The notes under the pieces are model-generated. The model was not told where the DNA came from, ran no database searches, and worked only from the letters and a program-made list of their open reading frames with translations. The position numbers were made by a program, and so were the translations under genes. From Parvularia atlantis (lineage: Eukaryota), in NCBI GenBank assembly GCA_943704415.1, contig CALSCO010001386.1:1-64000 (forward strand): a DNA stretch of 64,000 bases. Direction: 5' to 3'. Numbering within the stretch: the first letter of the stretch is position 1; every line of letters begins with the position of its first letter. Positions 5,489 to 47,415 of the stretch are shown piece by piece.

Positions 5489-8168
5489 TCAGAGCGGCTG
5501 AACGCGGACCTGCAAAGTCACGTTGCCCGTCACGTTGTCCTCGTTGCTGCACGCCGCCGCCGCGTCAGCTCGCGCCTATGCCCAGGGTCGCGCCACGCAC
5601 CGGTACCAGACCGACGGCCGCCGCTCGCACTCGAGCGTGTAGTCGACAAACCCGCCGTACTTGCCCTCGACCATGGCCGTCTCGGCCACGACGTTGACCT
5701 CGCCCATGAAGTCGTCGGCGCGGACCGTGTTGTAGTTCCAGATCTGCACGTTGACCAGCGCCTGGTCGAGCGTGTGACTGAAGAACACAAAGCTCTCGTT
5801 AAACTTGGGGTTGAGCGTGTCGTTGCAGATGACAAAGCCGCGCGCCTGCGCCGCACGGTTGGCAACCCGCACGCCGCAGCGAAGCACTCGCGCACCTCCT
5901 GCGTCTCGCGCGACTGGATCGCGCAGCAGCCCTCGGTCGAGTCAGTGCAGCGCACGAGCAGGTACGGGTCGGCGCCCTGGCCCATCATGTCGCTCTTGCG
6001 CAGGTTGTCGGCCTGGATGACCTGCGTGGCGTGGGTGGCGCGCGTGGGGTCACGCCCTGTGTTCGCGAGCGAGCGGCGGCGGGCGTGCGGCGCACGTTGA
6101 CCGTGATGCGGTACTTGTACGGGCCCTTGCACCGCGGCTCCTTGGGCTTGGTCGCGACGAGCGGCTCGCACTTGGCGAAGAGCGTCGAGACGCGCAGGAG
6201 CGACGTCTCCACAAACACGCGCAACAGGAACTCGGACGTCTGGCCGGGCTCGAACGTGCTCGGGACAATCACGTAGTTGCCCGGCATGAGCTCGCAGCGC
6301 GACGACAGCTGGCGCGCGTTGATGTAGTCGACCTTGTGCGCGACCTTGCCCAGCTCGACCATGCGCAACATCCGGTTGGCCTCGGTTTGCATGATCACAA
6401 ACCTGTTGCGAGCGCGCGCGCACGCTCAGTCACCCCCCGTTGCAGCCACCTCCCACACGCGCGCACCCGATCGACACGTTGGCGCTCGGCGGCGGCCCGC
6501 TCTCGGTCGTCAGCGCCATGCTCGAGCCGCTGCCGGCCGCGGGGCCGCCCCGATGGTCCTCCTGCATCAGACTCACGATCACCTTGGCCTTGTGCTTGAG
6601 CGTGAGCATGAACTGCGGGTTGTTGAGGAACGTGTCCGGGTGGTTGGTGCTCCCGCCCGAGTTGACTGCCGCACGCCGCGCGCGCGGACCGTGAGCGTGG
6701 CGTAGCGTGGCGTGGCGCGCGGCCCTACGCACGCTTTGTCCACGAGTTGTTGAACGTAAACACATGGAACGTCGACTTGGTGCTCAGCAGCGCCGTGTTG
6801 ATCACGCGGCACAGCACGATCTTGTTGAAGTGCTGCGCGGCGCCTCTGCGGTGAGCGCGCGACACGCGCGACGCACACGCCCGGCGCACCTGCACAAAGT
6901 CCTGGAAGCTCATCCAGAACTCGCCGTCGTCCGCCTTGACCAGCCCGAGCTTCTTCTTGTCAGCGTCCGAGATCTTCTTCCACTCCTGCGCGCTCAGTCA
7001 GGCGTGCGCTGCGCTGCGGGCTCATTGGGCGGGCGCGCGGACCTCCGAGTTGTCGGCCCACGCGCCCGTCCACTCGCCCTCGCCCCACGGGTTGCGCAGG
7101 CGGATCATCTCAAACTGCTCAAAGTTGAAGAAGCCGCGGTGCTTGATGCGCTGGATCGCGGTGATGGCGTACGCTGTGTCGCGCGGCCCACGCGTCAGAC
7201 GAAGTGAGCGAGCTGGCAGTCGCGCGCACCGTGGCCCGGCACCAGGCCGCTCTCGCCCGGACGCTCGCGCTCGTCTTCGGGCACGTCCAGAGCGCCGATG
7301 CTCGCCGTGACCAACGCACCATCGCGACGCGCGTGCGCGAGGCGCTCAAACAGGCGCTTGACGTCGGTCTGGTCGTCGACGGTGATGTCGTCCACGACTG
7401 CCCGCGCGGCCGCCGCCGTCAGTCGTGCCGCACCGCACGAGCGGCCGCGCACCGCCGTTGGTGAAGTCGACAAGCGCGTCGGCCGTGCTGCCCGTGTCGA
7501 GGCGCTCGTACGAGCCGACGAGCTTGGCGTAGGCCTTCTCGAGCAGCGACGCCCAGAACTCGTTCGAGGCCTTGGACTGGGCGAAGATAAGCTGGCCCGT
7601 CTCCTGGTTGACCGGGAGGGTGTCGTCGACGACGACCTCGATGCGCTTGCCCATGCGCCAGAAGCGGAAGCGCACGATGCCCGCGTACTGCTTGTCGTCC
7701 GTCATCTGCATGTCCTGCGCCTCCTTGTCGGGGAAGACCTGCGCACGGCGTCAGCCTCCCCCGATCGCATCGGCCTGCAGCCCGCGCCGCACGCGCCTCG
7801 TCCAGGTACTCGCGGTTGCCCGCCAGGACGCAGCACGCCGTCACCAGCCAGCAGTTGCCGATGTGGCCCTGGACGATGTCGTTGGTTGACGCGCCGTCCA
7901 CCAGCAGCCGCGCGCCCGCCGCGATCTCGTGCGGCCGCTTCCAGACGATCTTGGGGTACTTGGCCGAGAGCGCGGGGCCGATCGACTGGCGCGGGGGGGG
8001 CGGGCCGTGAGTCTGTGCGCATTCCCACGAGCCGACGCTGAGCAAAACCTGGCTCGACGCGGGGAACTTGTCGTCGACGAAGAGCGCGCCACTCTCCTTG
8101 TGGCCGGCATGCTGGCGCAGCAGCGCCGCGTAGTCCTGGCCGAAGAAGTGCACCAGGCTCGGCGCCAT
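5489..8168 (-). CDS. Calpain with CysPc, domain III and C-terminal C2 (calpain-5/TRA-3-like architecture)
   Basis: FVDDKFPAS, QGHIGNCW (Cys), GH|AYAIT (His), RLRNPWG (Asn), NSGGSTNHPDTFLNNPQF, IVPSTFEPG, C2 ADPYLLV..LNPKFNESF..DDFMG. Confidence 0.93.
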
Positions 8169-8484
8169 GGCTCTGCGCGCGCGCCCGCGGTGGCGGTGGC
8201 GTGAGCTTCCTCGCGCGTGCCCTGAAACAGGCCCCGGCGCGCTTAGATCTCGCGCGCACAGACGCCCCCCTCCCACAGCCGCAGCCCCGCTCCCGGCACC
8301 GGCCTCGCGCGCAGCACGTCCGCGCCGCGCACCAGGCGGCGGCTGTCGCGGGCTGCACGGCACAGCGGCGCGCGCGAGGCAGCTCGCCGGGCCCCTGCCG
8401 CGCCGCCAATAAGTCGATTCGAGAGAATGCAAGTACGTATCGCGCGCTGATTGGTCCGCACGCCCAGCCAACCAGCGACGCGCG

Positions 8485-11400
8485 ATGAACAGCGCGGCCG
8501 ATGTGTCGGCCGCGCCGGCCTCGCTCGACCTGCCGTGCGTGGCGGCCGCTCGCGCGCACGCGTGCACCGCGAGAGGCGCTGATCGCGGCGCGCGCAGGTA
8601 CCGCGTCGAGCGCTCGATGGACAACGAGCACCTGCAGGCGATCATGGAGCCGCTCATCCACGGCGCCGTCGACGGCGAGGCGCCGCTGCCGATGCTCGCT
8701 TTCACGCGCGTGCGCGTCGAGGGCGCCGCCGCCGACCTCGGCCAGACACCCGAGTTTGTCGCGATGGCCCAGCAGCTGCGCGAGTGCATGCGCCTGCGCC
8801 GGCGCTACCTCGATGCCAGCGTCCAGACCGCCGGCGCCAACCCAAAGGACGCGCGCACGGGCGTGCGGGCCGACGGGCGCACACCGCCGTTCGACCCGTT
8901 CGATGCGCCGGTGCCGGCGAACTGCAGCAACACGGTGCGTGCGGGCGGGCCCACACCCGCACGGCGGCTGATCGATCGAGCAGTACACGTGCGAGTTCCG
9001 CGACGGCGTCTTTGTCGTGCTGCGCGCCGCGGGTGCGCCCGTGCGCCGCGGGCTTGCGCGGAGCAGCTGATAGTGCGCGGCCGTGCAGACAGATCGGCAG
9101 AGTACGACATCCCCAACGTCGGCCAGTTCTACCGCGACCTCAACGTGCTGCTGTCGGTCGCGTCGGACGGGCCGACCAAGTCGTTCGCGTTCAAGCGGCT
9201 CAAGCTGCTCGAGTCAAAGTTCAGGTGCGCGCACACGCCCCGTCGCGCCGTCAGCCTCACCGCCGCACGCCAGCCTCTACGTGCAGCTGAATGAGCTGGC
9301 CGAGCGCGCGGCGTGCAAGGTTCGGCGCCTGCACGGTGGGCCCGCACGCTCAGCCCGGACCCCGCTCAGCTCGTGCCTCACCGCGACTTTTACAACGTGC
9401 GCAAGGTCGACACGCACGTGCACCACAGCGCGTGCATGAACCAGAAGCACCTGCTGCGGTTCATCAAGTGCAAGCTCAAGCGCAACCCGAACGTACGCGC
9501 CGCATAGCACCGCGCCGCCAGTGCGCTCACGTGCCCGGTCCCCTCAGGACGTCGTCATCTTCCGCGACAACCAGCATCTGACGCTCGAGCAGGTGTTTCA
9601 GTCGCTCAAGCTGACCGCGTACGACCTCAGCATCGACACGCTCGACATGCACGTGCGTCCCTGCTACGCGGCCGCTATGCGGCCGGCTCACGACGCACGC
9701 AGGCGCACAGCGACGCATTCCACCGCTTCGACAAGTTCAAGTGCGCGTCGCTGGCGTCGTGGGCACAGCGCGACGTATGCTGAGCCGCGCCGCGCCGCAC
9801 AGCCTCAAGTACAACCCGGTGGGCGAGTCGCGTCTGCGCGAGATCTTCCTCAAGACCGACAACTTCATCGGCGGGCGGTACCTGGCCGAGCTGACGATGG
9901 GTGGGGCGCGCGGCGAGGCCGGGCCGAAGCGCACACAAGCTAACCTCACCGCCCCCGCGCGACGCCAGAGGTCATGGCTGACATGGAGGAGTCCAAGTAC
10001 CAGATGGCCGAGTACCGCGTGTCGATCTACGGAAAGTGCGTGGGCGGCCGCCGTGCGACGCGGACCGCGCGTCCTGACGCGGGGCGCGCAGGTCTGTGTC
10101 TGAGTGGGACAAGCTGGCCAGCTGGTTCTGCGCCAACCGCGTCTTCTCGCCCAACGTGCGCTGGCTGATCCAGGTGCCGCGACTGTACAGCGTGTACAAA
10201 AGCACGGGCCTCGTGCGCACGTTTGCCGACTTTCTGCGCAGTGCGTGGGCGTACGCAGCGTGTGAGCGCTCGCTGAGCCGGCCGCAGACCTGTTCCAGCG
10301 CCTGTTTGAGGCGACGATCAACCCGGAGGCGCACCCGAGCCTACACCGCATGCTGCAGCAGGTCATCGGCTTCGACTCGGTGGACGACGAAAGCAGGTTT
10401 AGCAAGCGCATCCACAAGATGTGCGTGCTCGCGCGCATTCAGCCCCGCGATGGCTCACGTGCGCGTAGCTACCCGACGCCCGAGAATTGGGACCTGCCGT
10501 CCGACCCGCCGTACTCGTACTACATCTACCACATGTGGGCCAACGTAGCCTCGCTCAACCGGCTGCGCAAGGAGCGCGGCATGAGTGCGTCGCAGTGGTT
10601 GCGGCGGCCTCACGCTCACCCGGCCGCGACGCACGCACAGACACGTTTGTGCTGCGACCGCACGCGGGCGAGGCCGGCAACGAGGCCAACGAAAACCTGG
10701 CCGTGTGCTTCCTGCTGTCGTACGGCATTTCGCACGGCATCCTGCTGCGCAAGGTGCCGGCGCTGCAGTACATGTGCGCCGCCGCGACCGTCGCGCATCG
10801 CATCGGCCGCGGCTGAGCGTGCCGCAACCCAGGTACTACCTCGAGCAGGTCGGCGTGGCCATGTCGCCCCTGTCCAACAACGCGCTCTTTCTGCACTACG
10901 ACCGCAACCCCTTCCCCGAGTTCTTCAGCCGCGGCCTCAACGTCTCGCTGTCGACGGACGACCCGCTCCTGCTGCACTTCACGCGCGAGCCCCTGATGGA
11001 GGAGTACTCGTGCGCGGCGCAGGTGCACGGCGACATTGCGGGGGCGCGCGGTCTCACCCATGGCGCAGATCTGGCGGCTCACGGCGGCCGACATGTGCGA
11101 GCTCGCGCGCAACAGCGTGCTGCAGTCGGGATTTGAGCTGAGCCTCAAGCGAGTGCGCAGCACTTGGTGGGCGAGACCAGTCTGACCACGTGCGCAGTAC
11201 TGGATCGGCGACCGCTGCGACCGGCCCGGCGTTGAGGGCAACGGTGCTGGCGCTCATGTGCACACGCTGCAGCCACTTGATGCATGCGCGCGCATGCAGA
11301 CATGAACCGCACCAACGTGCCCGACATCCGCATCGCATACCGGCACGAGACGCTGACCGAGGAGCGCCGGCTGATCTGGGGCGACGGTGCGTGACGCGGG

Positions 11401-14477: not shown

Positions 14478-14592
14478 GTGAACTTGCGCGTAGACAGCCA
14501 CATTCTTGTGCGTGCGTCCTGCGCGCTGCCGTGCGCCGCCCGCCGTGCGCGTGACCGACCGCGCGCGCACAGCCGATCGGCCCACGGCGACG

Positions 14593-16945
14593 ATGCGCTG
14601 GTGGGACGCAGCGCTCGCGCGCGAGCAGCGCCGGCTGCTTGTGTACCGCGTCTCGCTCGGCGCGGCGCTGCTCGTGCTCGTCGTCGCCGCCGGCGCGCTC
14701 ATCGTGTACCTGTTCGACGGGTGCAAGTTCCCCGGGGGCGGGTACCAGGGCTGCTGCGCCCAGGTCGTGCTCGGGCAGCAGTCGTGCACGAGCGAGACGG
14801 GCGTGCTGCAGTGCTGCTACCTCTCGGGCGGGCTCAACTGCACCACGGCGCCGGCCGAGGAGGGCAAGTGCACCGCGCCGCGCACGGACGACGCGACAAC
14901 GGCGATGGCCCTTGCGATCACGGGCATTCTCGTGAGCTACCTCGTCGTGAGCATTGCCTGGCCGCTCTACGTCTATACGAGCCAGCAGGCGATCCACCCG
15001 CTCTTTGTGCGCATCGCCCGCACCGCGTCCGAGGACACGCCACCGGACGACGTCGCGGCGCTCGTGGCCGACATCAACAAGAACGCCGCGTTCGAGATCG
15101 TCGGCATCCTCCCGCCCGACGTCCGCCTCGCCGTCGACCGCACCACCCAGGAGGCCCTGCACGAGCCGCTCCGCGTCGTCCTGCCCACGCTGCTCTGGGC
15201 GTGGCTGTCGCCGCAGGGCCACCAGTTCCTCGACACGTGGAGCTCGCGCGGCACACGCGTCGGCAAGCGTACGTCCGGCCGCATCCTCTTCCTCTCGGCC
15301 GCGCTCAACCGGGCCGACCTGCTGCGCGTCATCGTCACTGCGCGCCTGACCGACGCCAACATCTCCGTGCTCAACACGGGCTGCGACATCAGCTTTGCCG
15401 ACCTTGTGCGTGCGGTCTGGCCTGGCTGCGTGACTGCCTGCCGCTCACGCTGCGCACGCGCGCGCGCGCGTGCGCAGGAGCCCGTGCCGTGGCGCATCGC
15501 GCTGCAGGCGCTCATCACGGCCGGCGTCGTCAACATCCTTGCGCCGATCAGCGCCCTCAACAGCACGCCCGACCAGTATCCGCAGCGCATGCCGCCGCCG
15601 CTCATCGTCGCGACCGTGCTCGGGCACCTTGACGTGGTCGTGGCCCTGCTCGAGATGCGCGCGAACCCGTCGATCACCTTTGTCGGCGGCATGACCCCGC
15701 TGCACTACGCCGCCAAGTTTGGCTTTGGCGAGATTGCCAAAATGCTCATCTTCAGCGGCGCGTCGGCTGAGACGCGCTCGACCGCGGGCACGACGCCGAT
15801 GGACCTCGCGTCCAACGCTGACGTGCAGGTGATCATGCGCGCGGCCCTTGCCGCCAAGCGCAAGGTCGACCAGGCCGCGCGCGACACGGCGCTCTCGCCG
15901 ATTGAGTCCGAAGCGCTCCTGCTCTTTGGCGAGATGCGCCTGACCGAGCGCACCAACGCCGATACGCTCAAGGGCACGTTCCGCGGCATGAGCGTCGCCG
16001 TGCAGGCGCGCGCAGCCCCGCGCGAGGCGCACAAGACCATCCTGACCGAGGCCGCCGTCCTGCGCACGCTCGCCCACGCGAACCTGCTCGCGCTCTACGG
16101 CGTCGCGCTCGGGCCCGAGGACAAGCGGCTGTACTTTCTGCAGGAGGTGGCGTCGTGCGCTTCAGTGCGCAGGCCGTGTCTCACTCGCGCGCTGGTGCGC
16201 ACGCAGCCGATCGAGGCCGACACCTTGCTCGATTACATCCGCCAGCGCGCGCGCCGCGGCCAGGCGCTCACACTCACGCTCAAGCGGCAGGTGGCCGCGC
16301 AGATCGCCGACGGCATCGCGTGCCTGCACGGGAGCGGGCTGCTGCACCGGCACGTCGCTGCGCGCAACGTACTCGCCGTGCGCCCGCCCACGCCCTCTGC
16401 GCCGATCGTGCCCAAGATCATCAACGTCTCGCTCGGCGACCAGCCCACGAGCGCCGACGTGTCCTGGACCGCCCCCGAGTCGCTGCAGGACCCGGCCAAG
16501 CACGTGTCGGCGTCGGACGCGTGGTCCTTCGGCGTGCTGTACTGGGAGCTGCTGACGGACGGGCTGGTGCCGTTTGGCACGGCGCAGCCGAGCGACGTGC
16601 GGGAGCGCATCCTCGGCGGCGAGGTGCTCTCGCGCGTGCCCAACACGCCCTCGGACGACACGATGATCATGATGGACTGCTGGCAAACCGACCCAGACCT
16701 GCGGTGCGCGGCGTGCACGTGCGGCCCGCCCCACCCGCCCGCGTGCCTCACCGCCGCCCCCGCGCAGACCCACCTTCAAGCAGCTGCGCCGGCGCCTCGA
16801 GCAGCTGCAGTCGTCGACATCGATCCCACGCCCGCAGGCGTCGCCGACCAAGGCCGCGCGGGGCGCCCGCGCCTCGAGCGCGCCCGCGAGCGAGACGTCG
16901 CCGCTGCTCGTGCGGCAGTACTCGGGCTCGTCCCTGGACGACTGA
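14593..16945 (+). CDS. Two-TM, ankyrin-repeat, tyrosine-kinase-family pseudokinase
   Basis: Two hydrophobic helices around a Cys-rich loop; GMTPLHYAAKFG ankyrin; HRHVAARNVL, WTAPESL, SDAWSFGVLYWELLTDGLVPF, MMDCWQTDPDLR|PTF. Confidence 0.8.
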
Positions 16946-17005
16946 GAGAGAGGCGAAGATTCGTTCGCAGCAGTGACATACGACAAGTTACAACAGCAGC
17001 ACCTC

Positions 17006-19694
17006 TCATGCGGCGGCGGGCGCGGGAGGCTCGCCCGCGTCCTCCGCGCCCGGGCTGGTGGCCGCGGCCGCCTTGGCCTTCTTTGTGCCCTTCTTGGCCT
17101 TGGGCTTCTGCGGCGACGGCGGGCGTGTGAGCGGCGCGCATGCGCGCACGGTTCGCACACACGAGCACGGGCGAGGCGTCGGCGCTGCCCGGTGCCGCGG
17201 CGGCCCGCCGTGTGCGCTTGGGCACGGCCGCGGGCGAGTTTTCGACGCTCGACGACGGCGCAATGCCGTCCACGGCCTTGGCCTTGGCCTTGCCCTTGGT
17301 CGGCTTGCGCTGGCGGCCGGCCAAGTCAGCTCGCGGCTACTTGCAGGCGCCATAGCGCGCGCACCGGCTTGTCGGACTTTTTCTTGGTCTTGCGAGGCGG
17401 CGCGTCCAGCTGCGATGCGCCGAGCGGGTCCGCCGCTGCTGTCCCGGCCACACCCTCGTCGCCCGATGCCAGCTCGTCGCCCGACGAGGCCAGGTCGTCG
17501 CCCGACGACGTCACGTCGTCCGTCGAGTAAGCGTCGTCGTCAGACGCCTCGCGTCGCGCGACGCGGCTTGCCGCCGGCCCGTCCGCCAGCGACACGTACG
17601 TCTCGTCTGCCTGGCTTTCGTCTCGCTCGCGCGGGACGGATGACTGGCGCCACAGCCGCGCGTGAGCACGGTTGCGAGCATGGTGCGCGCGCGGACGCGC
17701 ACCCTGCTGGGCATGGGCGAGAAGGATGTGCGTGGGGTGTAGGCGTTCGTTGCCGTGCCAGCGGTCGCCATGGCGCCGGACGTGATGTCGGCCAGCGGCG
17801 CCTCGCCAGTCTGCGCAGCCTCTGCGCGGGCCGGGGGGTGCGTGAGCAGCGGGTCACGTGGCTGGCAGGGCGAGGGAGGACGCACGCTGCCAGAGCGACG
17901 TTGTCTGCGTGCTCGGGACGCCGGGCGCGACGTGTGCGCCGTCGTCCAGGTCGATCTCGTCCGCCGCGACGGAGCCCGCGGGCTCCTCGACGTCGGCATC
18001 GTTCGCGACCGTCGTCGTGGGCGGATTGGCCGCGGGCTCGGCCTGCGGCTTGTCTGGCCCGATTTTGATCTGCAGCAGCGCGTGGAAGGCTGCCGAGGCG
18101 CGCGGTCGGCGGCACGGCCTGCTGTACGAGCGTACACGCACGCTGGCGGCAGATCGGGCACTTGTTGGACTGGAAGCGGAGCTGCTCGGCGCACTGCGAG
18201 CACAGGCACAGGTGCCGGCACGGCAGCACGACCGTGTCCTTCGGGTCCGACATGCACACGACGCACTCGCGTGTCGTGTCGCCGCTGCTTGGCGTGAGCC
18301 CCTCCACCGCGCGCACGACATCGGGCGCGCACGCACCTGTCGTCGCCACCGTCCGTTGTTTGCTCGATGCCAAAAATCTCCTGCAGCAGGAACGACACGC
18401 CGTGCGCGACGACCTTCTGCTTAAGCACCTTGCGATGTCCTCGACGGTCAGCCGCGTGCGTGCGGTGAGCGACGGGGGGCGCCGCGCACCTTGGCGTCGG
18501 CGTGGCCCGACTCGCCGGGTGCGTTGAACGTGAGCAGCGTGCTCTCCGTCTGGATCTCGTCGATCGACGATGCGAGCATCCCTGGCGGGTACGCGTTGCG
18601 CATTTCGGTGACCGCTTGAGTGTCTTTGTGGATGCGGCCGGCTGGCAGGGTGAGCAGACCGCGCGCGCGGCGGAGTGCGGGAGTACGGAAGCGGATGAGG
18701 GGAAAAGGGCGGGCGCATCACACACCGTGCTGCAGGCCCTGCGCCGCGTGCACGTCGGGCGGGATCGAGCTGAGCAGGATCACGAGCGGGTACACGCCCT
18801 TGATGTGGCTCTCGTGGTCGACCTGCGCACGTCGCCCCGCTCAGCGCTGCCCAGGGCGTGCTCAGCGGGGCATGCCAACGCACCTGCAGCTCCTCGGCCG
18901 TGTACAGCGACAGGTCGAGCGCGTGCTCGGGCGGCAGCGCAAACGTCTGCCCAAGGCCCTTCGGGAACGAGAAGACGGGCAGGTGCCCCTCGGGGCGCGC
19001 GGCCGTGTACCTGCGGTGCGCGCGCGCGTGGGGGAGCGGGGTTGAGCCGGCCGATGCGCGAGCCCCGGTCGCGAATGTGACGCACACGACGTTGTGCTTG
19101 GCGTTGATCGACTCGGTGCACGCGACGAAGAGCTGCACGGTGCACGGCGTGTCGGCGTCGAACGCGAAGCTGACGGTGTAGCGCATGGGGCTCGTGCTGC
19201 GGGCGATGCACGGCCCCCAATGAGCCCCGATGGCGACAGAGCGCGCGGCCGGCGCCGCACCCCTCGACGGCGGCCAGCTTGAACGTGTTGCGCTTGAGGT
19301 GGACGAACGAGCGCACGGTCGTCGTCGTCTGCACCTCGGGCGTGGGGTGGCCCTGCGCGCACCGCGCGTCACCCCTCCACGTGCCCGTCACGTGCGCGTC
19401 GCGGCGGGCCGCACCATCCGGCTCAGGCCGAACGCCGTCATGGGCGAGAAGTCGCTCGTGAGCCCGCCAAAGAGGAACGCGTCGGGCGCGGCCGTGTACT
19501 CCTGCCCGCCCATCACAAAGTGCGGCCCAAAGTACAGCCCGCGCTCGGCCTCGGCAGCCTGCGCCGCGGCCGTGGCGGCCTCGAGGTCGGCTTGGCGTGG
19601 CGCGCCTGTGGCTGCTGCCGTGAGCACGGTGGTCACGCGGCCAACCGCGCGCGGCGGCCGCACCGGCGCGCAGGCGGCTGGGCAGCTGCCCCAT
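17006..19694 (-). CDS. MGRN1: MGRN1/RNF157/LOG2-type RING E3 ligase with long acidic then Lys-rich tail
   Basis: N-terminal [89 protein letters not shown]. The 3' exons down to 17006 are joined by plausible GT-AG introns and are less certain. Confidence 0.88.
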
Positions 19695-32531: not shown

Positions 32532-34218
32532 ATGACAATGTGGCGCGGTGTCATCGTTGTTGTGCTGCTTGTCGCGCGTGCGGCCTGCGCGTCGCCGCGG
32601 CCGGCGCTGCTGCCGCTGCTGCTCGTCGTGGGCGACGTGGGCGAGCGCGGAGCGCGCGTGCTGTACCAGAGCACGACGGGCGAGGCGCTGGCGCTTGAGG
32701 CGGTCGTGCGCGGCGGCGACGACGGCGGCGTAGTCGCGGTCGAGCAGCTCGTCGTGCGGCCCGACGTGCCGCAGGTCGTGCGCATCGGCGGCCTCGCGCC
32801 GTGGACAGCGTACTCGGTCGAGTTCCGCGGCGCGCAGCTCGCCGAGCCTGCGCGCGCCACCTTTCGCACGTTCGGCCCGCCCGGCGCGCCCGGCGAGCGG
32901 CGCCCGCTGCACGTCGTCGCCGTGTCGTGCAACAGATACAACGAGGACGGCGACCTGACGCACTGGCGGCGGCTCGTGGCGAACGAGGGCGCGCGCGACG
33001 GCATGGTACACCTCGGCGACCAGGCGCGCGTTGGCACCCTTCCCCGCGCGCGCCTGCCTGACACCAGGGCGCGCAGATCTACGCCGATGAGCTGACGGCC
33101 GAGGCGGCACGCAACAGCTCGCTCTCCAAGGCGTACCTGCTCGGGCGCCTGCGCGCGATCTACGTCGAGACGTGGGCCACGCCCGAGATGCAGGCTGTGC
33201 TGCGGCACGGCGCGCACTGGATGCTGCTCGACGACCACGACATCACCAACAACCTCGACGCCGAGCTGTACCGCCCGGGCCTTACGGCGCTGCTGGACGC
33301 GGGCCGCCAGGCGTACTACGAGTACCAGCTGGCGCTCGCGGCCGACGTGGGCGACGCCGCGACGGCCGCGCCGCCGGCGTACTTTGCGCGGCGGGTCGGG
33401 CCGCTCGCGTTCTTCTTCCTTGACACGCGCCTGCAGCGCACGTTTGCGCACGAGGACGAGTACCCGCTGCTGGGCGCGCAGCAGTGGACCGATCTGACGG
33501 TGCGACAAGCGCGCGCGCACCTGAGCCCGAGTGAGACACTGAGGTGCGGGCGGGCGCTGCAGACGACGCTGCGAGCGTGGCGCAAGATTCCGGCGATCGA
33601 GCGCGTGGTCGTGTTCTCGAGCGTGCCGCTCATCTTCGGCGGGCCTGCGGCGGCCGAACTCGTGCACCGTGTCGAGCAGGAGCGCCTGCTGACCCACTCG
33701 TCACACGTGCGCGAGACCGAGCACTTGCTCGACACGCTCTCGCCCTTTGGCGAGCGCGTGACGATCGTCGGCGGCGACATCCACATGTTTATGCAGTCGG
33801 AGCTGTGCCGTGCGAGCGACGGCGTCTGCCTGCACCAGGTGCGTGCGGCCCGTTGCGCCGGTCTTGGACTGTAACTCACGCGCCGCCGGCGCAGGTCGCA
33901 ACGAGCGGCATGACGCGCGGCTCGACCGTCGTCGACAGCCTCAAGATCTACCTGTTTGTGGCGCTCTGGTACCATGTCCTGCCGGCAACAGCGGGGCAGT
34001 GGACGGCCGTGCACAGCGACGCGTTCCTGGGCAAGAACTACGCGCGGCTGACGTTTGCCGGCGGCGAGCTCACGGTCACGCCCGTGCTCGACCCGGACAT
34101 GTCGTCGCGGCAGGCGCTGCGACAGTTTGTCTTTGAGATGATCCCGCTGTGGCCGCTGCTGCTGCTGACGGCGCTGTCGGTAGCGAGCACGGGCTACATC
34201 CTGCGCTACGCCATGTAA
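32532..34218 (+). CDS. PhoD-like metallophosphatase with signal peptide and C-terminal TM anchor
   Basis: VSCN, HLGDQ|IYAD, LDDHDI, LDTR, LLGAQQW, SSVP, GGDIH; hydrophobic N- and C-termini; the ATG may be 32538. Confidence 0.88.
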
Positions 34219-35596: not shown

Positions 35597-38500
35597 ATGG
35601 CCGACGACGGGCCGCCGCCATGCGCGGGATGCGCGCAGCCGATGTCGGGCAAGTTTGTGCGCGCGCTCGGCGGCGTGTGGCACCTGGCCTGCTTCACGTG
35701 CATCGTGCGTGGCTCCTGCCTGCGCCGATCGCCTGCCCCGATCGACCGCCGGGCTGATGCGCGCGGCGCACGGGCGGGCAGGACTGCGGCGCCGTCGTCG
35801 CCAACAAGTACTACGAGGCGGATGGCCGGCCCGTGTGCGAGCGCGACCACTTCCGCCGCCGGCGCCTGCTCTGTGCGCGTTGCGACGAGCCCATCCGCGG
35901 CGCGAGCCTGACCGCGCTCGAGCGCGCGTTTCACCCGGAGCACTTTGTGTGCAGCGCGTGCGGCACGGTGCGTGTGACACCCCGTCGCGCGCGCGTGCGC
36001 CGACTGCGTTGGCGCGCGTGCGCCTGCAGCGCCTCGTCGACCCCGACAGCGCCGACAGCGCCGTCTTCTACGAGCACACCAACCAACCGTACTGCCGCCT
36101 GCACTTCTCCGTCAGCTTCGCGCAACAGTGCGCCGCCTGCAACATGGCCATCCTGCGCCAGGTCGTCGACGACGGCCAGTGCCAGTGGCACGTCGACTGC
36201 TACAAGGTCTACCAGGTGCGCGGGACCGCAACTGTGCAGATGTCATAGCGACGCTCAACCGCGCGCGCACATGCACAGATATGGAATGTGAGCCTGCCAC
36301 CGCCACAGGACGTGCTGCAGGCGATCCCGCTGACAGACTGGGCGCGCGTCGACGAGGCCCGCGCCGCGTTCGAGCGCCTGCAAGTCGAGGTTGAGGAGCG
36401 CGTCAACAACACCTTCGCAGTCCTGTGGACGTTTGAGGAGGCCGTGGCGCACTGCATCGCCGAGACCGTCATCAGCTACGACGAGTACGACTTCGCGCGC
36501 GCGCCCGACCGCGCCCTCGCCATCGTCGCCTGCGCCGAGGTCCTGCTCAACGCGATGGACACGCTGGCGCTGCCCGGCATGGCCGATGACGGTGCGTGCG
36601 CCCCCCGCACGTGCGCGTGCGCACCGCTGGCTGACCCACCGCGCCAGACTGGGCGCAGTTCACCACCGCGATCGACCGCGCGCTGGAGTTTGTCGACCAG
36701 TCATACAAAACCTCGGCCACGATCCGGCGCCGGCAGGTCTGGCTGCTGCTGCACGCGCGACGACGGCCGCTCACACCGCGCGCGATCGCAGAACAACACC
36801 AAGGTTCTGCTTGAGTTTGCCACCGACGTCGCGCGCCACTTCAAGGCGACCATCCGCAAGTGCCTCGAGGTCGTGCTCGCGCAGGACAAGGGCCGCGTCA
36901 ACGCGCTCATGGACCAGTTTGTGGCGCTGCTGCGCGAGTCGTACCAGGGGTCGTCGTCGGTCGAGGTGCGGGCGCGCAAACACGGTGCCCCCCTCCCGCA
37001 GCTGCGCTGACGCCGCGAGCCACAGCACGCGTCGGCCGTCGTTGACTCGGCGCAGGTCAAGGAGCAGATCCTCGCGGGGCCGACGGGCCTCGTGTTTGGC
37101 GAGCGCCTCGTGCGCAAGCCGTTGCAACCGGCCGAGCCCGCAACACCGACGGTCGCCGGCGACCAGTACGAGCGCTCGAAGCCGACCTTTGTTGTCACGA
37201 CGCGGCCGCCGGGCGGGCGGCGCAACCGGCATATCGTCACACTGGTCGAGCTCGTCGAGAAGCGGCTCGGGTTTCTGCGCACGGCGCCGGCGATCGTCTA
37301 CGAGGACCGCGAGCCCGAGCAGAAAACAAGTGCGGTGCAGCGGCGGCGATGCAGCGACCGCTGACCCACTTGGCGTACGCGCGCCCCAGATGCAGTCGCC
37401 GCCGCGCAGACAAGCGAGCAGCAGGACGCGTACGAGTCGGACGACGACAACGACACCGACGCCGCAGCCAGTGCCGCCGCGACCGTCGCAGACGCCGTAC
37501 CGGCTGGCATGCGCGGCAGCGGCTCGCTCGCAAACCTCAGCATCCCCGAGGTCAGCGCGCAGCTGCAGTCGCCCGCGGCCGACGAGCCCAGCCTCCTCAG
37601 CCCGCGCACGCCCACAACGCCAAAGCAGCTCATCAACGACGACGCGGAGAGGCCGTCGGACGTCAACTCGATCCGCGAGTCGTTCAACCGCATGAGCATG
37701 TCGTCAACGGTGCGCCGCAAACGTAAGCGATGGACACCGCTCACGCGCCGGCGTGCTCTTCCACAGTTCAGCTTTCGCGTGCACATGCCGCCGCCGAGTG
37801 AGCAGGAGAAGCGCGTGCAGTATGTGGCTAACCTGTCGGCGATCGAGCTGATGATGGTGCGGCAAATGGCCGTGCTGCGCCTGTCGCAGCTGCTCGGGTG
37901 CGCCCTGCTGCCGCCGCTGCGGTGTTCGCGTGCTACTGACGGTCGGTCGCCTCCCCGCGCGCAGCAACCAGTACTCGCTCGGCGACATCATGAAGCTGAC
38001 GCAGGTGCAAGACCGCAAGCCGCTGCTGCAGCGCATCTTCCAGAGCTTCCGCGTCAACCGCAAGAAGCGCGGTGCGCCGTGCATGCTCTGACACGCTCAC
38101 CAGCGGCTGACGCGCACGTTGTGCCCGCCAGAGTCGAGCGCGTTTGGCATGTCGCTCGAGGAGGCTGTGGAGCGCTCGGGTGTGGACTCGAGCCTGGGCG
38201 TGGGCCCTGCGAGCTTGCGCATCCCTGTGCTGATCGAGAAGACGATCAACTACATGGACAAGCACGGTGCGCCTGCGTGCAAGCACACCGCGCGTGCGCG
38301 TTGCCGACGCCCGCCGGCACGCAGGGCTCAACCAAGAGGGCCTGTTTCGCAAGTCGGGCAGCGCCAAGCGCATCAACGAGCTGCGCGAGCAGTTCTCGAA
38401 GGGCGCGGACGTGTCTCGCGTGGACCTGTCGCAGGCGTCGCCGCTCGACGTCGCCGCGCTGATCAAGCGCTACTTCCGCGAGCTGTCCGAGCCGCTGCTC

Positions 38501-39182
38501 ACATTCAACTTCTTCGACCTGTTTATGGCGTCGCAACGTGCGCGTCGCGGCGAGGCGCGGGCGGAGCTGACGCGACGCGGCGCGCGCAGAGTTCGAGGAC
38601 AAGAAGATCCGCAACGAAATCATCCATCTGCTGCTCCTGCTGCTGCCCAAGGCGCACCGCGACGTGGTGGAGGTGTGTGCCGCCTGTACGCCCAGTCTCG
38701 TGTTTTGACGGTGCGCGCAGGTGTTCATGGCGTTCCTCAAGCGCGTGGCGCAGCATGCGCACGCGTCGGCCACGGGCGGCCAGCCGGGCAACCTCATGAC
38801 CGAGGCCAACCTGGCTGTGTGCCTCGCGCCGTCGCTGCTCATCGCGCGCACGGCCGACCGCGACGCCGACGACGGCGACCACCGCAAGACGGGCGCGCAC
38901 TCCGCCGCGGCGCTGTCGCAGTCGGCCATCGGCTCGACGTTCCTCACACCGACGACGCCAACGACGCCGTCGGTGTCGGACGTGTCGGACGTGTTCCGCG
39001 CGAGCGAGCGCCAGAACAGCCTCGCGATCAGCGTCGTAACGTCAATGATCAAGCACCACCTCGTTTTTGCCAAGGTGCGCGCCCGCGACGTTGCCGCCCT
39101 GGTCTTGATGCGGGTGCGCACACAGGTGCCCGACCACATCGCCGCGCAGCTCGTCAAGCCCAAGCAGATGATGGGTCTCTGA
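35597..39182 (+). CDS. LIM-domain RhoGAP (fungal Lrg1/Rga1-like)
   Basis: CAGCAQPMSGKFVRALGGVWHLACFTC, CERDHFRR, FHPEHFVCS, YCRLHFS, WHVDCY..WNV; FGMSL, EGLFRKSG, LIKRYFRELSEPLLTF, NLMTEANLAVCLAPSL. Confidence 0.9.
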
Positions 39183-39251
39183 CCTGCTGTCGCGCCCGCC
39201 TGCTACTGTTACCACTGCTGTTGCTGCGTTCCCACAGACACATGAGCGATC

Positions 39252-43874: not shown

Positions 43875-44537
43875 ATGCTGCCTGTTCCGCGGTCCAGCAT
43901 GACGCCGCACGAGCACGCGGCCGGCGTGACCGTGATCAGCGCGGCCGGCGCGGACGACGACGGCGCCGGCGCCGCGGGCGACGAGTTCTACATGGCACTC
44001 GCGCTCAGCCTTGCGCGCCTGTGTGAGCCCGTCGACTCGGCGTACTGCGTCGGCGCCGTGCTCGAGCGCGCCGGGGCCATCGTCGCCACGGGCTTCAGCC
44101 GCGAGCTGCCCGGCAATACACACGCCGAGGAGGTCTGCCTGCTCAAGGTCGCCGACGCCGACGGCCGCGTCGACGCCCGCGGCTGCACCCTCTACACGAC
44201 CATGGAGCCGTGCTCACGCCGCCTCTCGGGCAAGTGCCCGTGCACCGTGCGCCTCATCGACGCCGGCATCTGCCGCGTCGTCGTCGCCGTGCGCGAGCCG
44301 CCGACGTTCGTGGCCGACTGCACCGGTGCGTGTGCACGCGCGCCCGCTGCGTCGCGTGATCGGCCGACCCGCACGGCGCGCACAGGCTGCGAGGACCTGC
44401 GCCGCGCGGGGATAGAGATCGGCTTCTGCGAAAAGTTCGCGCCCGAGGCGCTCGCGCTCAACCGGCATGTGCTGCCGCCAGGGCTGTTCGACGCCGTGGC
44501 CGCGCGGGCGGCCACAGGGCCAGGCGGGCCAGCATAG
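43875..44537 (+). CDS. Stand-alone Rib2-type pyrimidine (riboflavin pathway) deaminase, CDA superfamily
   Basis: GFSRELPGNTHAEE, LYTTMEPCSRRLSGKCPC, REPPTFV; the ATG may be 43899. Confidence 0.82.
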   Translation: MLPVPRSSMTPHEHAAGVTVISAAGADDDGAGAAGDEFYMALALSLARLCEPVDSAYCVGAVLERAGAIVATGFSRELPGNTHAEEVCLLKVADADGRVDARGCTLYTTMEPCSRRLSGKCPCTVRLIDAGICRVVVAVREPPTFVADCTGACARAPAASRDRPTRTARTGCEDLRRAGIEIGFCEKFAPEALALNRHVLPPGLFDAVAARAATGPGGPA

Positions 44538-44573
44538 CCTCATCGCCTCACCATCGATGTGTCTGTACAGCTC

Positions 44574-45694
44574 TCATCGTACAAACCGCGTCGTCCGGGC
44601 GTACGTGGCCGGGTCGCGGAACGTCTGCGCGGCCGCGCGCGGTCACGACCAAGCGCAGCCCGCCGCAGCGCACCCTGGTGATGCTCTGGCACAGCTCGTC
44701 GAAGGGCGTGTCCAGCGCGCCCTTCTGCACGCTCACGACAAAGTCGTAGCCTGGGCGCGGCGCGAACCCGGTCAGCGCTGCGAGCGAGCCGGGCTGCGGC
44801 GCACCCGCGCGCGCGTGCGTCTGCGACAGGCGGACGGCCTCGCGCAGCCGGCGGCGCGCCCGGTTGCGCACGACGGCGTTGACCGGCATCTGCTTCTTGG
44901 TCACAATCACGTTGATGCGCGCAAACGCGTCTGCGGTGCGAGCGCCAGCGTGAGGCGCGGGCGCGCACGGACAAGCCGCGCAGCGCACGGTTGCCCTTCC
45001 TCTTCCGCACGCGCATGATGTAGGCGGACGACGACGCGGCCGGCCACCCGCGGTTCAAGTCGATCAGCGTGCCAAGGTCGAGCTTGGCCGGCGCAAACAG
45101 GCGCGGCGGACCGGCCTTGGCGGCAGCGAGGCGGCGCTTCGTGGCCCACTTGAGCTCCTTGTGCTCCTTGCGCAGCTGCAGCTGCAGCCGGACGCGGTTC
45201 CACCGGTTCCGCAGCGACGGCTGCTTGCGCGGCGCGAGCGGCACCGGCCGTGGCTGCACCTGCTGCGGTCTGGTGGCGGCCGGCGGTCTGGTGGCGGTCG
45301 GCGGCTTGCGCCATCGCTGCGGTTGCGGCGGCAGCGGCTGGTGTTGCGGGAGCGTGATCCTCGGCGGTTGCTGCGGCAGCGGCTGCAGAGGCGGTTGCGG
45401 TTGCGGAGATGGCGGCCTCGGCTGCTGCTGCAGTAGCGGTGGCGGCCTCGATGGCTGTCGCGGCAGTGGCGGTGGCGGCCTCGATGGCTGTCGCGGCAGT
45501 GGCTTCAATGCTCTCAATGGCTGCTGCTGTTGCGGCGGCCCTGACTGCCACGGCCTCGCCTGCTGTCCATCGATGCGCTGCCCGTCCGGACGTGGTCCGT
45601 CGACGCGTGGGCCCGGCTGCCATCGCGGCGGCGGGGGCGGCGGCGGCGGCGGCCTGGACGCGGTCGCGAAGCCACGCAGGGCGCGCGTCACCAT
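44574..45694 (-). CDS. rnpA: Bacterial-type ribonuclease P protein (RnpA), predicted mitochondrial
   Basis: Spliced: RINVIVTKKQMPVNAVVRNRARRRLREAVRL..G|YDFVVSVQKGALDTPFDELCQSITR (RNR motif); N-terminal MVTRALRGFATASR presequence; 3 GT-AG introns. Confidence 0.87.
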
Positions 45695-45726
45695 TCCAAC
45701 CCCCAAACAGGCGGCAGGTGTGGCGG

Positions 45727-47389
45727 ATGCTCATCACCCCGACGCCGGCGACCGTGCGTTGCGCCCTGCGCCCCGTGCCGCGCCCGCTCACGCCGCGCCG
45801 CAGGAGATCGAGGCGCGCAATCGCGCACGGCTCGAGTCGATCGTGCGCAACCGCGAGACGGGCGAGGAGCTCAAGAATGGTCCGGCGCCGCTGCTCTCGC
45901 CTGCGCGCGTCCAAACGCTGACAGACGCGCGCAGACCTGTACACCGTTGTCACGTTCGAGAGCTCGTCGCAGCAGTTCCTGCGCACGGGCTCCACCGAGA
46001 AGTTTCGCATCTACCTGGGCGCGCCCAACGACCTCAAGGACACGAAGGCGCGCGGCATCATCGTCGCCAAGGACGCGATGTACGAGGGCATCATCGACGA
46101 CTATGCCCTGCTCAACAAGTACGCCAGCAAGGACAAGGTCCCGCCGGGCGAGAAGAAGCCTGTGCGGGCCCGCGTCGCGCGCGCGCGCGCGCGCATCGGC
46201 CAACCGCGCCGCGACCGCAGTTCAACTATATCCAGAACATCATCACGGCGCTGTGCAAGGAGGACCAGGACAAGCTGCGCGCGGAGCTGCACCGCGACAG
46301 CGGGCCCACGCCCTACACGAGCGTCGACGCCGAGTGCGTGCACCCGCGTGCGCGTGGCTGGCGCTGATCGCCCCGGCGCAGCGACACCGACGAGTTGGCC
46401 ACGCCCGAGGACGGCGCGCGCGTGAGCGAGATTCTGTACGAGAACCAGCGCAGCCTCGTCGTGGGCGACTACTCGTCCAACTACCTCATCCCGATTCTCG
46501 ACCGCTGCGGGCCCTGGTGCGATGTCAAGGTGTGCGCGGCGTCACTCGCCGATGTTTGCGTTGACCCGTGGCGGCCAGGGCAACCCGCGCACGAAGGAGG
46601 ACGTGCAGCTGCCGAGCGAGAGCTGGCAGTGGGTGGGCGACTGGCACGCAGACACGCCCCGGCCGGGCGTGGATGACGACGGCTGGGAGGTGCGCGCACA
46701 CCCCCCGCGGCCGCGCAAGCGTGTGACAGAGCGCGACCGGCCAGTACGCGTTCAACTGGAACATGACGTGGTCCGGGTCGCGCGGCGTGACATCGTACGT
46801 GCGGCGGCGACGCTACGTCCGCGAGCGTGTCTACCACGGTGCGCACGGGCCGAGTGCTACTGCAATGGCTGACGATGCAGGCAGAGCCGAGCAAGGTGAG
46901 CGACGCGGGCGTTGCGAGCCAGCCAGCAGCGGCGCCAGCGGCCCACGACGAGCACGACCAGTCACCCGTGCGCTCATCTGCGACTGCTGCCGGATGAGTG
47001 TCGTCGTCTGACGCACGCGCGCTTAGGCACCAACGGTGATCGTGCCCAACTTCCGCGCCATCGTCCGGGCCGCGCGCGGTCTCGTGAATTCGCCGACGCT
47101 GCCGCCCGCCTCGCCGCCGGCCCAGCCCAGCACGTGCGCGCGCGTCTGCACGACGAGCGTGCGCGTGGTGTGACGGCGGCGCGCACGCAGGCTCAGCAAG
47201 CCGGCGCTGGGCGTGCACGAGCCGCTGCGCCCATCGGCCGTGACGTTGAGCATCGAAATCGCCGTCGTGGTGCTGCTGGCGCTCGCCACCGTGCTCACTG
47301 TCGTCATGCTCTTCCAGCTCGGCGCGCTCGAGAGCGAGGTCGCGCAGCTGGGCACGCTCATTGGCCAGCAGCAGCACCACCACCACTGA
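45727..47389 (+). CDS. Dysferlin (DysF/Pex24-type) domain protein with C-terminal TM anchor
   Basis: LYENQR..DR..WCD, LPSESWQWVGDW..VDDDGWE|YAFNW..YVRRRRYVR; hydrophobic IAVVVLLALATVLTVVMLF near the stop. Confidence 0.8.
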
Positions 47390-47415
47390 GCCGCCACCCT
47401 GTTTTTTTTCCCTTC

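What the first reader, a model, noticed from the sequence alone, without database searches (positions are those of the whole stretch)
44574..45694. Nuclear-encoded, mitochondrion-targeted bacterial-type RNase P protein (RnpA) in an opisthokont-like genome
Seen: after removing three ordinary introns, the C-terminal region reads ..IMRVRKRKGNHAFARINVIVTKKQMPVNAVVRNRARRRLREAVRLSQTHARAGYDFVVSVQKGALDTPFDELCQSITRTF. It follows a presequence-like MVTRALRGFATASR and a long P/Q/R-rich linker. Known: R(I/V)GxxVxKK..AVxRNRxKRxxRE..D(F/Y)VV..K is the RnpA signature. Animal mitochondria use PRORP and yeast uses Rpm2 plus rnpB, while nuclear RnpA is patchily distributed in eukaryotes. Inference: this lineage keeps an ancestral alphaproteobacterial-style two-component mitochondrial RNase P, which predicts a bacterial-like rnpB RNA in its mtDNA. 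The P/Q-rich extension is a non-bacterial addition. Host-type introns argue against contamination.
Basis: partly seen in the sequence, partly recalled or inferred. Interest (0 to 1): 0.9.

Follow-up and report, generated by a model that had tools for sequence, protein, structure and literature searches.

The report
Nuclear bacterial-type RNase P protein gene
This protist-like nuclear genome carries a spliced gene for a divergent relative of the small protein that bacteria pair with a catalytic RNA to trim tRNAs, and the protein is predicted to enter mitochondria, where it would likely partner an RNA that has not yet been found.

Summary
A four-exon gene (45694 to 44574, minus strand) encodes 319 aa, and one transcript contig joins all three predicted introns. 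The C-terminal 90 aa are an RnpA (bacterial RNase P protein) domain: Pfam PF00825, 42 bits against a cut-off of 22, even unspliced, with the RNR motif intact. It is not canonical. A near-invariant glycine is Asn, and the N-terminal helix of RnpA is not matched. The N-terminus has presequence traits like two mitochondrial-type genes in the window. The domain leans to Alphaproteobacteria, weakly. The host is a eukaryote with fungal-side and non-fungal clues; its lineage is unresolved. No genome was held, so rnpB, PRORP and Rpm2 were not searched, and a 'two-component' enzyme is inference. Nuclear RnpA is in print for Andalucia and prasinophytes, and this scan found similar genes before on other DNA (fungi, a fungus-related protist). 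Verdict: real; likely the protein subunit of a mitochondrial RNA-based RNase P (about 0.62); a new member of a known but little-tested kind.

The parts
44989..45694 (-). Exon 1 (codons 1-236): start, presequence-like stretch, low-complexity linker, basic segment, first part of the RnpA domain
   Evidence: Open frame from the only in-frame upstream ATG; X1 contigs cover 44989-45498; the first 65 codons rest on the open frame alone
45653..45694 (-). Predicted mitochondrial presequence, residues 1-14, with an R-3 type cleavage motif (predicted cut after Phe9)
   Evidence: 3 K/R and 0 D/E in the first 20 aa, hydrophobic moment 0.77, R-3 motif at R7; my own measures, no dedicated predictor; the R-3 rule is recalled
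45224..45652 (-). P/Q/R-rich low-complexity linker, residues 15-157, with in-frame tandem repeats
   Evidence: Composition; repeats of 33 nt x2.2 (45430-45503), 18 nt x2.2 and a 3-nt run; no Pfam or NCBIfam hit
45116..45223 (-). Basic, non-repetitive segment, residues 158-193; no known relative
   Evidence: Third-position GC 0.93 over codons 161-200, like the domain; no relative in metagenome contigs
45047..45097 (-). Residues 200-216: lie where RnpA has its N-terminal helix; at most a shortened, degenerate version
   Evidence: Aligned there by MAFFT with a 6-residue gap and no conserved Phe; no profile match to positions 1-29
44613..45037 (-). RnpA domain core, residues 220-307, split by all three introns
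   Evidence: Profile positions 30-114 of 122, 64-67 bits, one unbroken match when spliced; Pfam; fold search
44860..44868 (-). RNR motif (Arg257-Asn258-Arg259)
   Evidence: Columns 96-100% conserved in 71 bacterial rows and kept here
44931..44988 (-). Intron 1, 58 nt, GT..AG
   Evidence: Joint in X1 contig
44805..44930 (-). Exon 2, 126 nt; silent C/T variant at 44869
44751..44804 (-). Intron 2, 54 nt, GT..AG, in frame and stop-free
   Evidence: Joint in X1 contig
44674..44750 (-). Exon 3, 77 nt
44625..44673 (-). Intron 3, 49 nt, GT..AG
   Evidence: Joint in X1 contig
44574..44624 (-). Exon 4, 51 nt, ends in TGA

Best explanation
This is a spliced, transcribed nuclear gene for a 319-aa protein with a divergent RnpA domain, predicted to be imported into mitochondria, where it likely serves as a protein subunit of an RNA-based RNase P that would cut 5' leaders from pre-tRNAs. 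Shown: gene structure, splicing, family, intact RNR motif. Inferred: (1) the first 9-14 residues direct import and are cut off; (2) the RNR helix binds the catalytic domain of a P RNA, as in bacteria; (3) that RNA is mtDNA-encoded and probably degenerate, as in many fungi; (4) the very basic extension (whole protein pI 12.0) replaces the lost N-terminal helix or props up a reduced RNA; (5) the gene came from the alphaproteobacterial ancestor of mitochondria. Other subunits may be needed, so 'two-component' is not implied.
For: Three junctions in one contig. PF00825 over cut-off. Spliced protein matches profile positions 30-114 in one piece, 67 bits against 49 for the unspliced frame. Of 23 columns at least 70% conserved in 71 bacterial rows, 15 are identical here, among them R240, K247, K248, A254, V255, R257, N258, R259, R262, R265, E266, R269, D280, V282. 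The model of an 85-aa piece (pLDDT 78) has RnpA structures as its first 12 listed Foldseek rows (E 0.02-1.8) and ranks 1, 2 and 4 in VIA-align (Z 5.0, 4.8, 4.1); both are partly circular, as the alignment held only RnpA. Presequence traits match the likely starts of the window's NFU-type and class II tRNA-synthetase genes and not those of the LIM-RhoGAP, deaminase or carrier genes. Closer to class-of-Rhizobium rows than to the other class sampled: median score 101.5 (n=22) against 85.5 (n=14); profile 63-69 against 56 bits. Precedent: mitochondrion-targeted nuclear RnpA with mtDNA rnpB in Andalucia (PMC7050145); Ostreococcus RnpA complements E. coli (PMC4919922); fungal mtDNA often holds rnpB while its proteins are mostly unknown (PMC3790967).
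Against: Gly (99%) is Asn242; the N-terminal R-L...F helix is unmatched, and in T. maritima residues 8-21 bind the P RNA and align the leader (PMC8447495). TIGR00188 scored 26.5 bits against a cut-off of 38.35, on an 85-aa unspliced piece only. Alpha grouping drops to support 78 with 103 rows, and the query is a long branch. Splicing rests on one contig of one study; a 206-nt contig of run X2 runs through intron 3 unspliced. Two reviews list no rnpB for Nuclearia mtDNA or no RNase P for Nuclearia (PMC7194472; PMC4919922), which matters if the host is a nucleariid. Only 32 bp separate this ATG from that of the divergent neighbour.
Confidence: 0.62

Rival explanations
1. The protein is a repurposed mitochondrial RNA-binding protein (for example in rRNA or mRNA maturation or on the mitoribosome) that outlived its P RNA, with tRNA 5' ends made another way.
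For: Loss of the N-terminal helix signature and of the invariant Gly; about 200 added residues; no rnpB listed for the one nucleariid mtDNA in a review; rnpB is patchy in fungi.
Against: The RNR helix, which binds P RNA in bacteria, is the best-kept part; degenerate fungal rnpB genes can shrink to P1 and P4 and be missed; Andalucia RnpA is also called highly diverged.
Confidence: 0.22
2. Same or similar function, but the gene came by a later horizontal transfer from an alphaproteobacterium (prey or symbiont), not from the mitochondrial ancestor.
For: The only 4 hits among 2422 candidates of near length are 132-aa bacterial RnpA of Rhizobiaceae type; no eukaryotic relative was retrieved.
Against: The query lies outside the Rhizobiaceae clade (98 and 99 support) on a long branch, with at most 37-39% identity to any row; three host-type introns; unchecked scan notes report similar genes across fungi.
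Confidence: 0.1
3. The gene is a decaying relic, or the working product is a short 93-aa protein from Met227 with the P/Q-rich part untranslated.
For: Low-complexity linker with tandem repeats; three out-of-frame ATGs between Met1 and Met227.
Against: No stop or frameshift in 319 codons; repeats are multiples of three; third-position GC 0.93-0.97 from codon 161 to 280, so coding begins well before Met227; the one variant seen in the gene is silent; Met1 has G at -3 and +4.
Confidence: 0.05
4. The sequence is bacterial contamination or a mis-assembly.
For: All retrieved homologs look bacterial.
Against: Spliceosomal introns of the same size and donor type as those of the neighbours (49-60 nt); X4 contigs run across gene and neighbours; the window holds only eukaryotic-type genes.
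Confidence: 0.01

Closest known systems
Bacterial RNase P protein RnpA / C5 (Pfam PF00825, TIGR00188; PDB 1NZ0, 2LJP, 1A6F, 6D1R)
   Same: Strand-RNR helix-strand-helix core; RNR motif, KK, AV, D-x-V; very basic.
   Different: 319 aa against about 120; three introns; presequence and P/Q/R linker; Gly to Asn242; two extra residues before the AV; N-terminal R-L...F helix unmatched.
Andalucia godoyi nuclear-encoded, mitochondrion-targeted RnpA (PMC7050145, passages read)
   Same: Nuclear gene, predicted mitochondrial, diverged RnpA domain.
   Different: Andalucia has a known bacterial-type rnpB in its mtDNA; here the RNA is untested. Different supergroup. Sequences not compared (not held).
Prasinophyte (Ostreococcus tauri) nuclear RnpA (Lai et al. 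2011, seen only as cited in PMC4919922 and PMC7050145)
   Same: Nuclear-encoded bacterial-type P protein beside organellar P RNAs.
   Different: Activity shown there in vitro and in E. coli; target organelle unsettled; no such test here.
Fungal nuclear RnpA-like genes (unchecked scan notes; also recalled from Lechner et al. 2015, PMID 26341299, which was not held)
   Same: Spliced nuclear gene, RnpA-like domain, N-terminal extension, candidate partner of mitochondrial rnpB.
   Different: This host also shows non-fungal traits; no fungal sequence was retrieved, so orthology is untested.
Yeast Rpm2/RPM1 and animal PRORP (MRPP1-3)
   Same: Same inferred job: mitochondrial tRNA 5' maturation.
   Different: Unrelated proteins (PMC3790967, PMC10941002); not searched in this genome.

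Membership tests
PF00825 Ribonuclease_P domain family | Score above Pfam's gathering cut-off | tested here: met
   42.2 bits, cut-off 22.3, on the unspliced frame
PF00825 Ribonuclease_P domain family | RNR motif helix | tested here: met
   A254, V255, R257, N258, R259, R262, R265, E266, R269 kept; the K (73%) is R261
PF00825 Ribonuclease_P domain family | RnpA fold | tested here: inconclusive
   Only an 85-aa piece with intron 2 read through was folded, on an RnpA alignment; best matches are RnpA but at E 0.02 and Z 5.0
Canonical bacterial RnpA (TIGR00188) | Score above the curated cut-off | tested here: inconclusive
   26.5 of 38.35 bits on a partial, unspliced piece; the spliced protein was not scored against this library
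Canonical bacterial RnpA (TIGR00188) | Near-invariant Gly of the R-x-G strand | tested here: not met
   Asn242 against Gly in 99% of 71 rows; the X1 contig agrees with the DNA there. Not filed as canonical RnpA
Canonical bacterial RnpA (TIGR00188) | N-terminal helix with R-L...F that binds P RNA and leader | tested here: inconclusive
   No profile match to positions 1-29; a shorter segment without the Phe aligns there; this part was not folded
Nuclear-encoded organellar RnpA of eukaryotes | Host nuclear gene, spliced | tested here: met
Nuclear-encoded organellar RnpA of eukaryotes | N-terminal targeting peptide and import | tested here: inconclusive
   Presequence traits by my own measures with in-window controls; no predictor, no localisation
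Nuclear-encoded organellar RnpA of eukaryotes | rnpB in the organelle genome of the same organism | not testable with these tools
   No genome held; no Rfam match in the nuclear window, as expected
Nuclear-encoded organellar RnpA of eukaryotes | No PRORP in the same compartment | not testable with these tools
   No genome held; mutual exclusion stated in PMC10941002 section 4
Nuclear-encoded organellar RnpA of eukaryotes | Stimulates pre-tRNA cleavage by a P RNA, or complements rnpA | not testable with these tools
   Bench test

The most novel reading that the evidence does not exclude
The host is a non-fungal opisthokont (nucleariid-like, or even on the animal side), a group for which reviews list no mitochondrial RNase P, and this gene reveals a hidden RNA-based enzyme there: a remodelled RnpA whose long basic extension replaces the lost N-terminal helix and holds a P RNA too reduced to have been recognised. 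With fungal RnpA-like genes it would show that the opisthokont ancestor kept the endosymbiont's protein subunit, later replaced by Rpm2 in yeasts and PRORP in animals.
Probability: 0.35. Interest if true: 0.65.

Novelty: new member of a known kind. Interest (0 to 1): 0.42.

Why it matters
The protein part of mitochondrial RNA-based RNase P is unknown in most fungi and their protist relatives (PMC3790967, section 2.2.2), and one review lists Nuclearia among lineages with no RNase P found (PMC4919922). A clear, expressed RnpA-family gene with a presequence names a candidate and gives a sharp prediction: a possibly degenerate rnpB in this organism's mtDNA and no mitochondrial PRORP. It is easy to test by complementation. 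It adds a lineage to a known pattern and does not open a new kind of system.

Tried and rejected
Wrong frame: (the one search of protein representatives) and 31 were sent with window:44675-44929:-, which is out of frame; their results, including P0005, are meaningless and unused, so the most sensitive homolog search was lost. Eukaryotic homologs: none found (4 hits of 2422 candidates, 91-293 aa; 98 hits of 7989 candidates scored, 232-2000 aa; 4 name an organism, all bacteria; the rest looked like bacterial RnpA with mis-called starts in the part that I saw, which was cut; 0 of 596 stretches) or 104 (0 of 476). These word-based searches are weak, so this is no evidence of absence. A single-sequence PDB search with the right frame found no RnpA; the profile search found 11 RnpA chains but the profile is 4/5 bacterial. 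The protein atlas gave no answer. First fold on 5 rows was poor (pLDDT 60). Genome searches with the 85-aa piece were mostly noise and served only to fetch loci: 23 of 30 and 14 of 30 loci held an RnpA, and L116 was dropped as a fragment. The careful tree did not finish; one search is the quick tree, and 'gamma' is my label for the class of G052 (the tool names no class). X1 contigs do not cover 45499-45710, a low-complexity stretch where the tool skips repeats; this says nothing about the start codon either way. Lineage: eS24 scores 94-99 bits on entries I recall as animal and 85-93 on fungal and plant ones, not decisive; the calpain paper did not settle it; the upstream neighbour had no homolog; one search found no PDB match. 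Two papers were not held (Lechner 2015; Jovanovic 2002). No supplements were read; those of PMC7050145 may hold the Andalucia RnpA record. No complex prediction was run, as the partner in question is an RNA.

Full report
1. The observation. The gene lies on the minus strand from ATG 45694 to TGA 44574. Splice-site listing gave three GT..AG introns: 44988-44931, 44804-44751 and 44673-44625. Removing them gives 960 nt and 319 aa with a single stop. Four public runs hold part of the stretch. One 1354-nt contig of run X1 skips exactly 58, 54 and 49 nt at these places, while contigs of X4 run through unspliced. X1 is only guessed to be RNA by the tool, but its joints at GT..AG ends here and in both neighbours show spliced transcripts. 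This is one contig from one study. Against it, a 206-nt contig of the lake metatranscriptome X2 covers intron 3 unspliced (DNA or retained intron). X1 contigs cover codon 66 onward; the first 65 codons rest on the open frame. The introns match those of neighbouring genes in size (49-60 nt) and donor, and the window holds eukaryotic-type genes throughout, so contamination is excluded.

2. The domain. Even unspliced, the frame hits PF00825 (E 9.1e-11; 42.2 bits; cut-off 22.3), and all 8 NCBIfam hits of the 85-aa piece are RNase P protein models, each under its cut-off. On a profile that I built from bacterial RnpA loci, the spliced protein matches positions 30-114 of 122 in one piece at 64-67 bits, against 49 bits in two pieces unspliced; 1000 shuffles reach 13.5 at best. 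Of 23 columns at least 70% conserved among 71 bacterial rows, 15 are identical, including the whole RNR helix. Two departures matter. The N-terminal helix (R 77%, L 85%, F 79%) is not matched by the profile; residues 200-216 align there only with a 6-residue gap and without the Phe. In T. maritima, residues 8-21 bind the P RNA and align the leader (PMC8447495, passages). A model of the 85-aa piece (exon 2, intron 2 read through, exon 3; pLDDT 78) finds RnpA structures first in both fold searches, but weakly (E 0.02; Z 5.0, rmsd 2.1, 65 aligned) and on an RnpA-only alignment.

3. The extension. Residues 1-14 have 3 basic and no acidic residues in the first 20, a hydrophobic moment of 0.77 and an R-3 type motif (rule recalled). 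The likely starts of the window's NFU-type gene (51023) and class II tRNA synthetase (50049) give 0.74 and 0.70 with the same motif; the LIM-RhoGAP, deaminase and carrier starts have acidic residues and no motif. I picked these starts by eye from 19 candidates; the ECH and NUBPL starts were not found, and an off-gene ATG pair near NFU also carried the motif, so the test is rough. Residues 21-165 are 34% P, 19% Q, 14% R with in-frame tandem repeats. Residues 158-193 are basic, non-repetitive and coded with third-position GC of about 0.93, which argues that translation starts upstream of Met227; Met1 is the only in-frame choice. The whole protein is 36 kDa, pI 12.0.

4. Origin. The nearest sequences found are alphaproteobacterial. 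Among loci drawn from two classes of Pseudomonadota and ranked by the same query, the class of Rhizobium scores higher (median 101.5, n=22, against 85.5, n=14; the first set includes the centre genome, chosen for likeness). In a quick 72-row tree the query joins the 27 alpha rows at SH-aLRT 96, outside the Rhizobiaceae clade, on a long branch. With 103 rows, 52 of them unlabelled, support falls to 78 and the tool warns of long branches meeting. This fits descent from the mitochondrial ancestor and shows no close donor, but proves neither. No eukaryotic homolog was retrieved, and my most sensitive search was lost to a frame error.

5. Host. Unresolved. Fungal-side clues: a gene at 35597-39183 with three LIM-type repeats and a C-terminal RhoGAP, the layout of fungal Lrg1/Rga1 (PMC3914944, passages; that animals lack it is recalled); the adjacent deaminase, whose best PDB hits are 7DRZ/7DRY (recalled as a fungal Rib2-type enzyme). 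Non-fungal clues: a transmembrane ankyrin protein with a tyrosine-kinase-like domain and a calpain with a C2 domain. A non-fungal relative of fungi would fit all four; that is inference. 'Opisthokont-like' is reasonable, not shown.

6. Mechanism. Most likely (0.62) the protein is imported, loses its presequence and binds an mtDNA-encoded P RNA through the RNR helix, helping it cut pre-tRNA leaders; the basic extension may stand in for the lost helix or support a reduced RNA. Every step after 'RnpA-family gene, spliced' is inferred. The main rival (0.22) is a repurposed RNA-binding protein without P RNA. No genome was held, so rnpB, PRORP and Rpm2 could not be searched; Rfam found nothing in the window.

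7. What is known. Andalucia has a mitochondrion-targeted, highly diverged nuclear RnpA with mtDNA rnpB, and prasinophytes have nuclear RnpA (PMC7050145, passages). The Ostreococcus protein works in vitro and in E. coli; the same review lists Nuclearia among lineages with no RNase P found (PMC4919922, passages). PRORP is absent from fungi and amoebozoa and excludes the RNA form within a compartment (PMC10941002, section 4). Fungal rnpB is patchy and its proteins mostly unknown (PMC3790967, passages and section 2.2.2). A review's gene list for Nuclearia simplex mtDNA has no rnpB (PMC7194472, passages). Passages of PMC6380272, PMC8509007, PMC12699882, PMC3563603 and PMC8061703 added nothing decisive. 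Lechner et al. 2015 was not held; I recall that it reports RnpA-like genes in fungal nuclear genomes. Seven searches of the held library listed no paper on nuclear RnpA in a non-fungal opisthokont; I judged most by listing only, and most subscription papers are missing. The scan's own notes show 8 similar findings in other genomes, 7 fungal and 1 in a fungus-related protist (unchecked), and none on this genome or look-alike DNA.

8. Verdict. Observation confirmed; interpretation partly supported. A member of the PF00825 domain family, not a canonical bacterial RnpA. New member of a known kind; interest 0.42, up to 0.65 if the host is a non-fungal opisthokont with a hidden, reduced mitochondrial P RNA.

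Noticed in passing
window 35597-39183 (+): One intron-rich gene with three LIM-type repeats and a C-terminal RhoGAP, the layout of fungal Lrg1/Rga1, in a genome that also shows non-fungal traits.
   Followed up: partly
window 14494-17127 (+): Transmembrane protein with a Cys-rich N-terminal part, ankyrin repeats and a tyrosine-kinase-like domain whose catalytic-loop Asp seems replaced (likely pseudokinase); best kinase hits EGFR and CSK.
   Followed up: partly
window 43875-44537 (+): Stand-alone deaminase (Pfam Inv-AAD; best PDB hits 7DRZ/7DRY, then RibD) with one 60-nt intron; it ends 37 bp from the RnpA-like gene, tail to tail, and one X1 contig runs through both, which suggests overlapping 3' ends.
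   Followed up: partly
window 45727-47390 (+): Spliced, transcribed neighbour whose ATG is only 32 bp from that of the RnpA-like gene; no Pfam hit above threshold and no homolog found; a Trp-rich stretch near 46600-46830 recalls a DysF domain (recalled, untested).
   Followed up: partly
window 5579-8804 (-): Calpain with catalytic domain, domain III and a C2 domain, as in animal calpain 5/6 (likeness recalled).
   Followed up: no
window 44030 and 44869: C/T differences in X1 fall exactly where X4 contigs break, so they are likely allelic variants and not editing.
   Followed up: partly
window 44537-44742, 45844-46068: Identical pieces of 151-206 nt in two lake-water metatranscriptomes (X2, X3; one study) hint that the organism or a very close relative lives in fresh water.
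   Followed up: no
window 33062-33871 (+): PhoD-like phosphatase in a long open frame.
   Followed up: no
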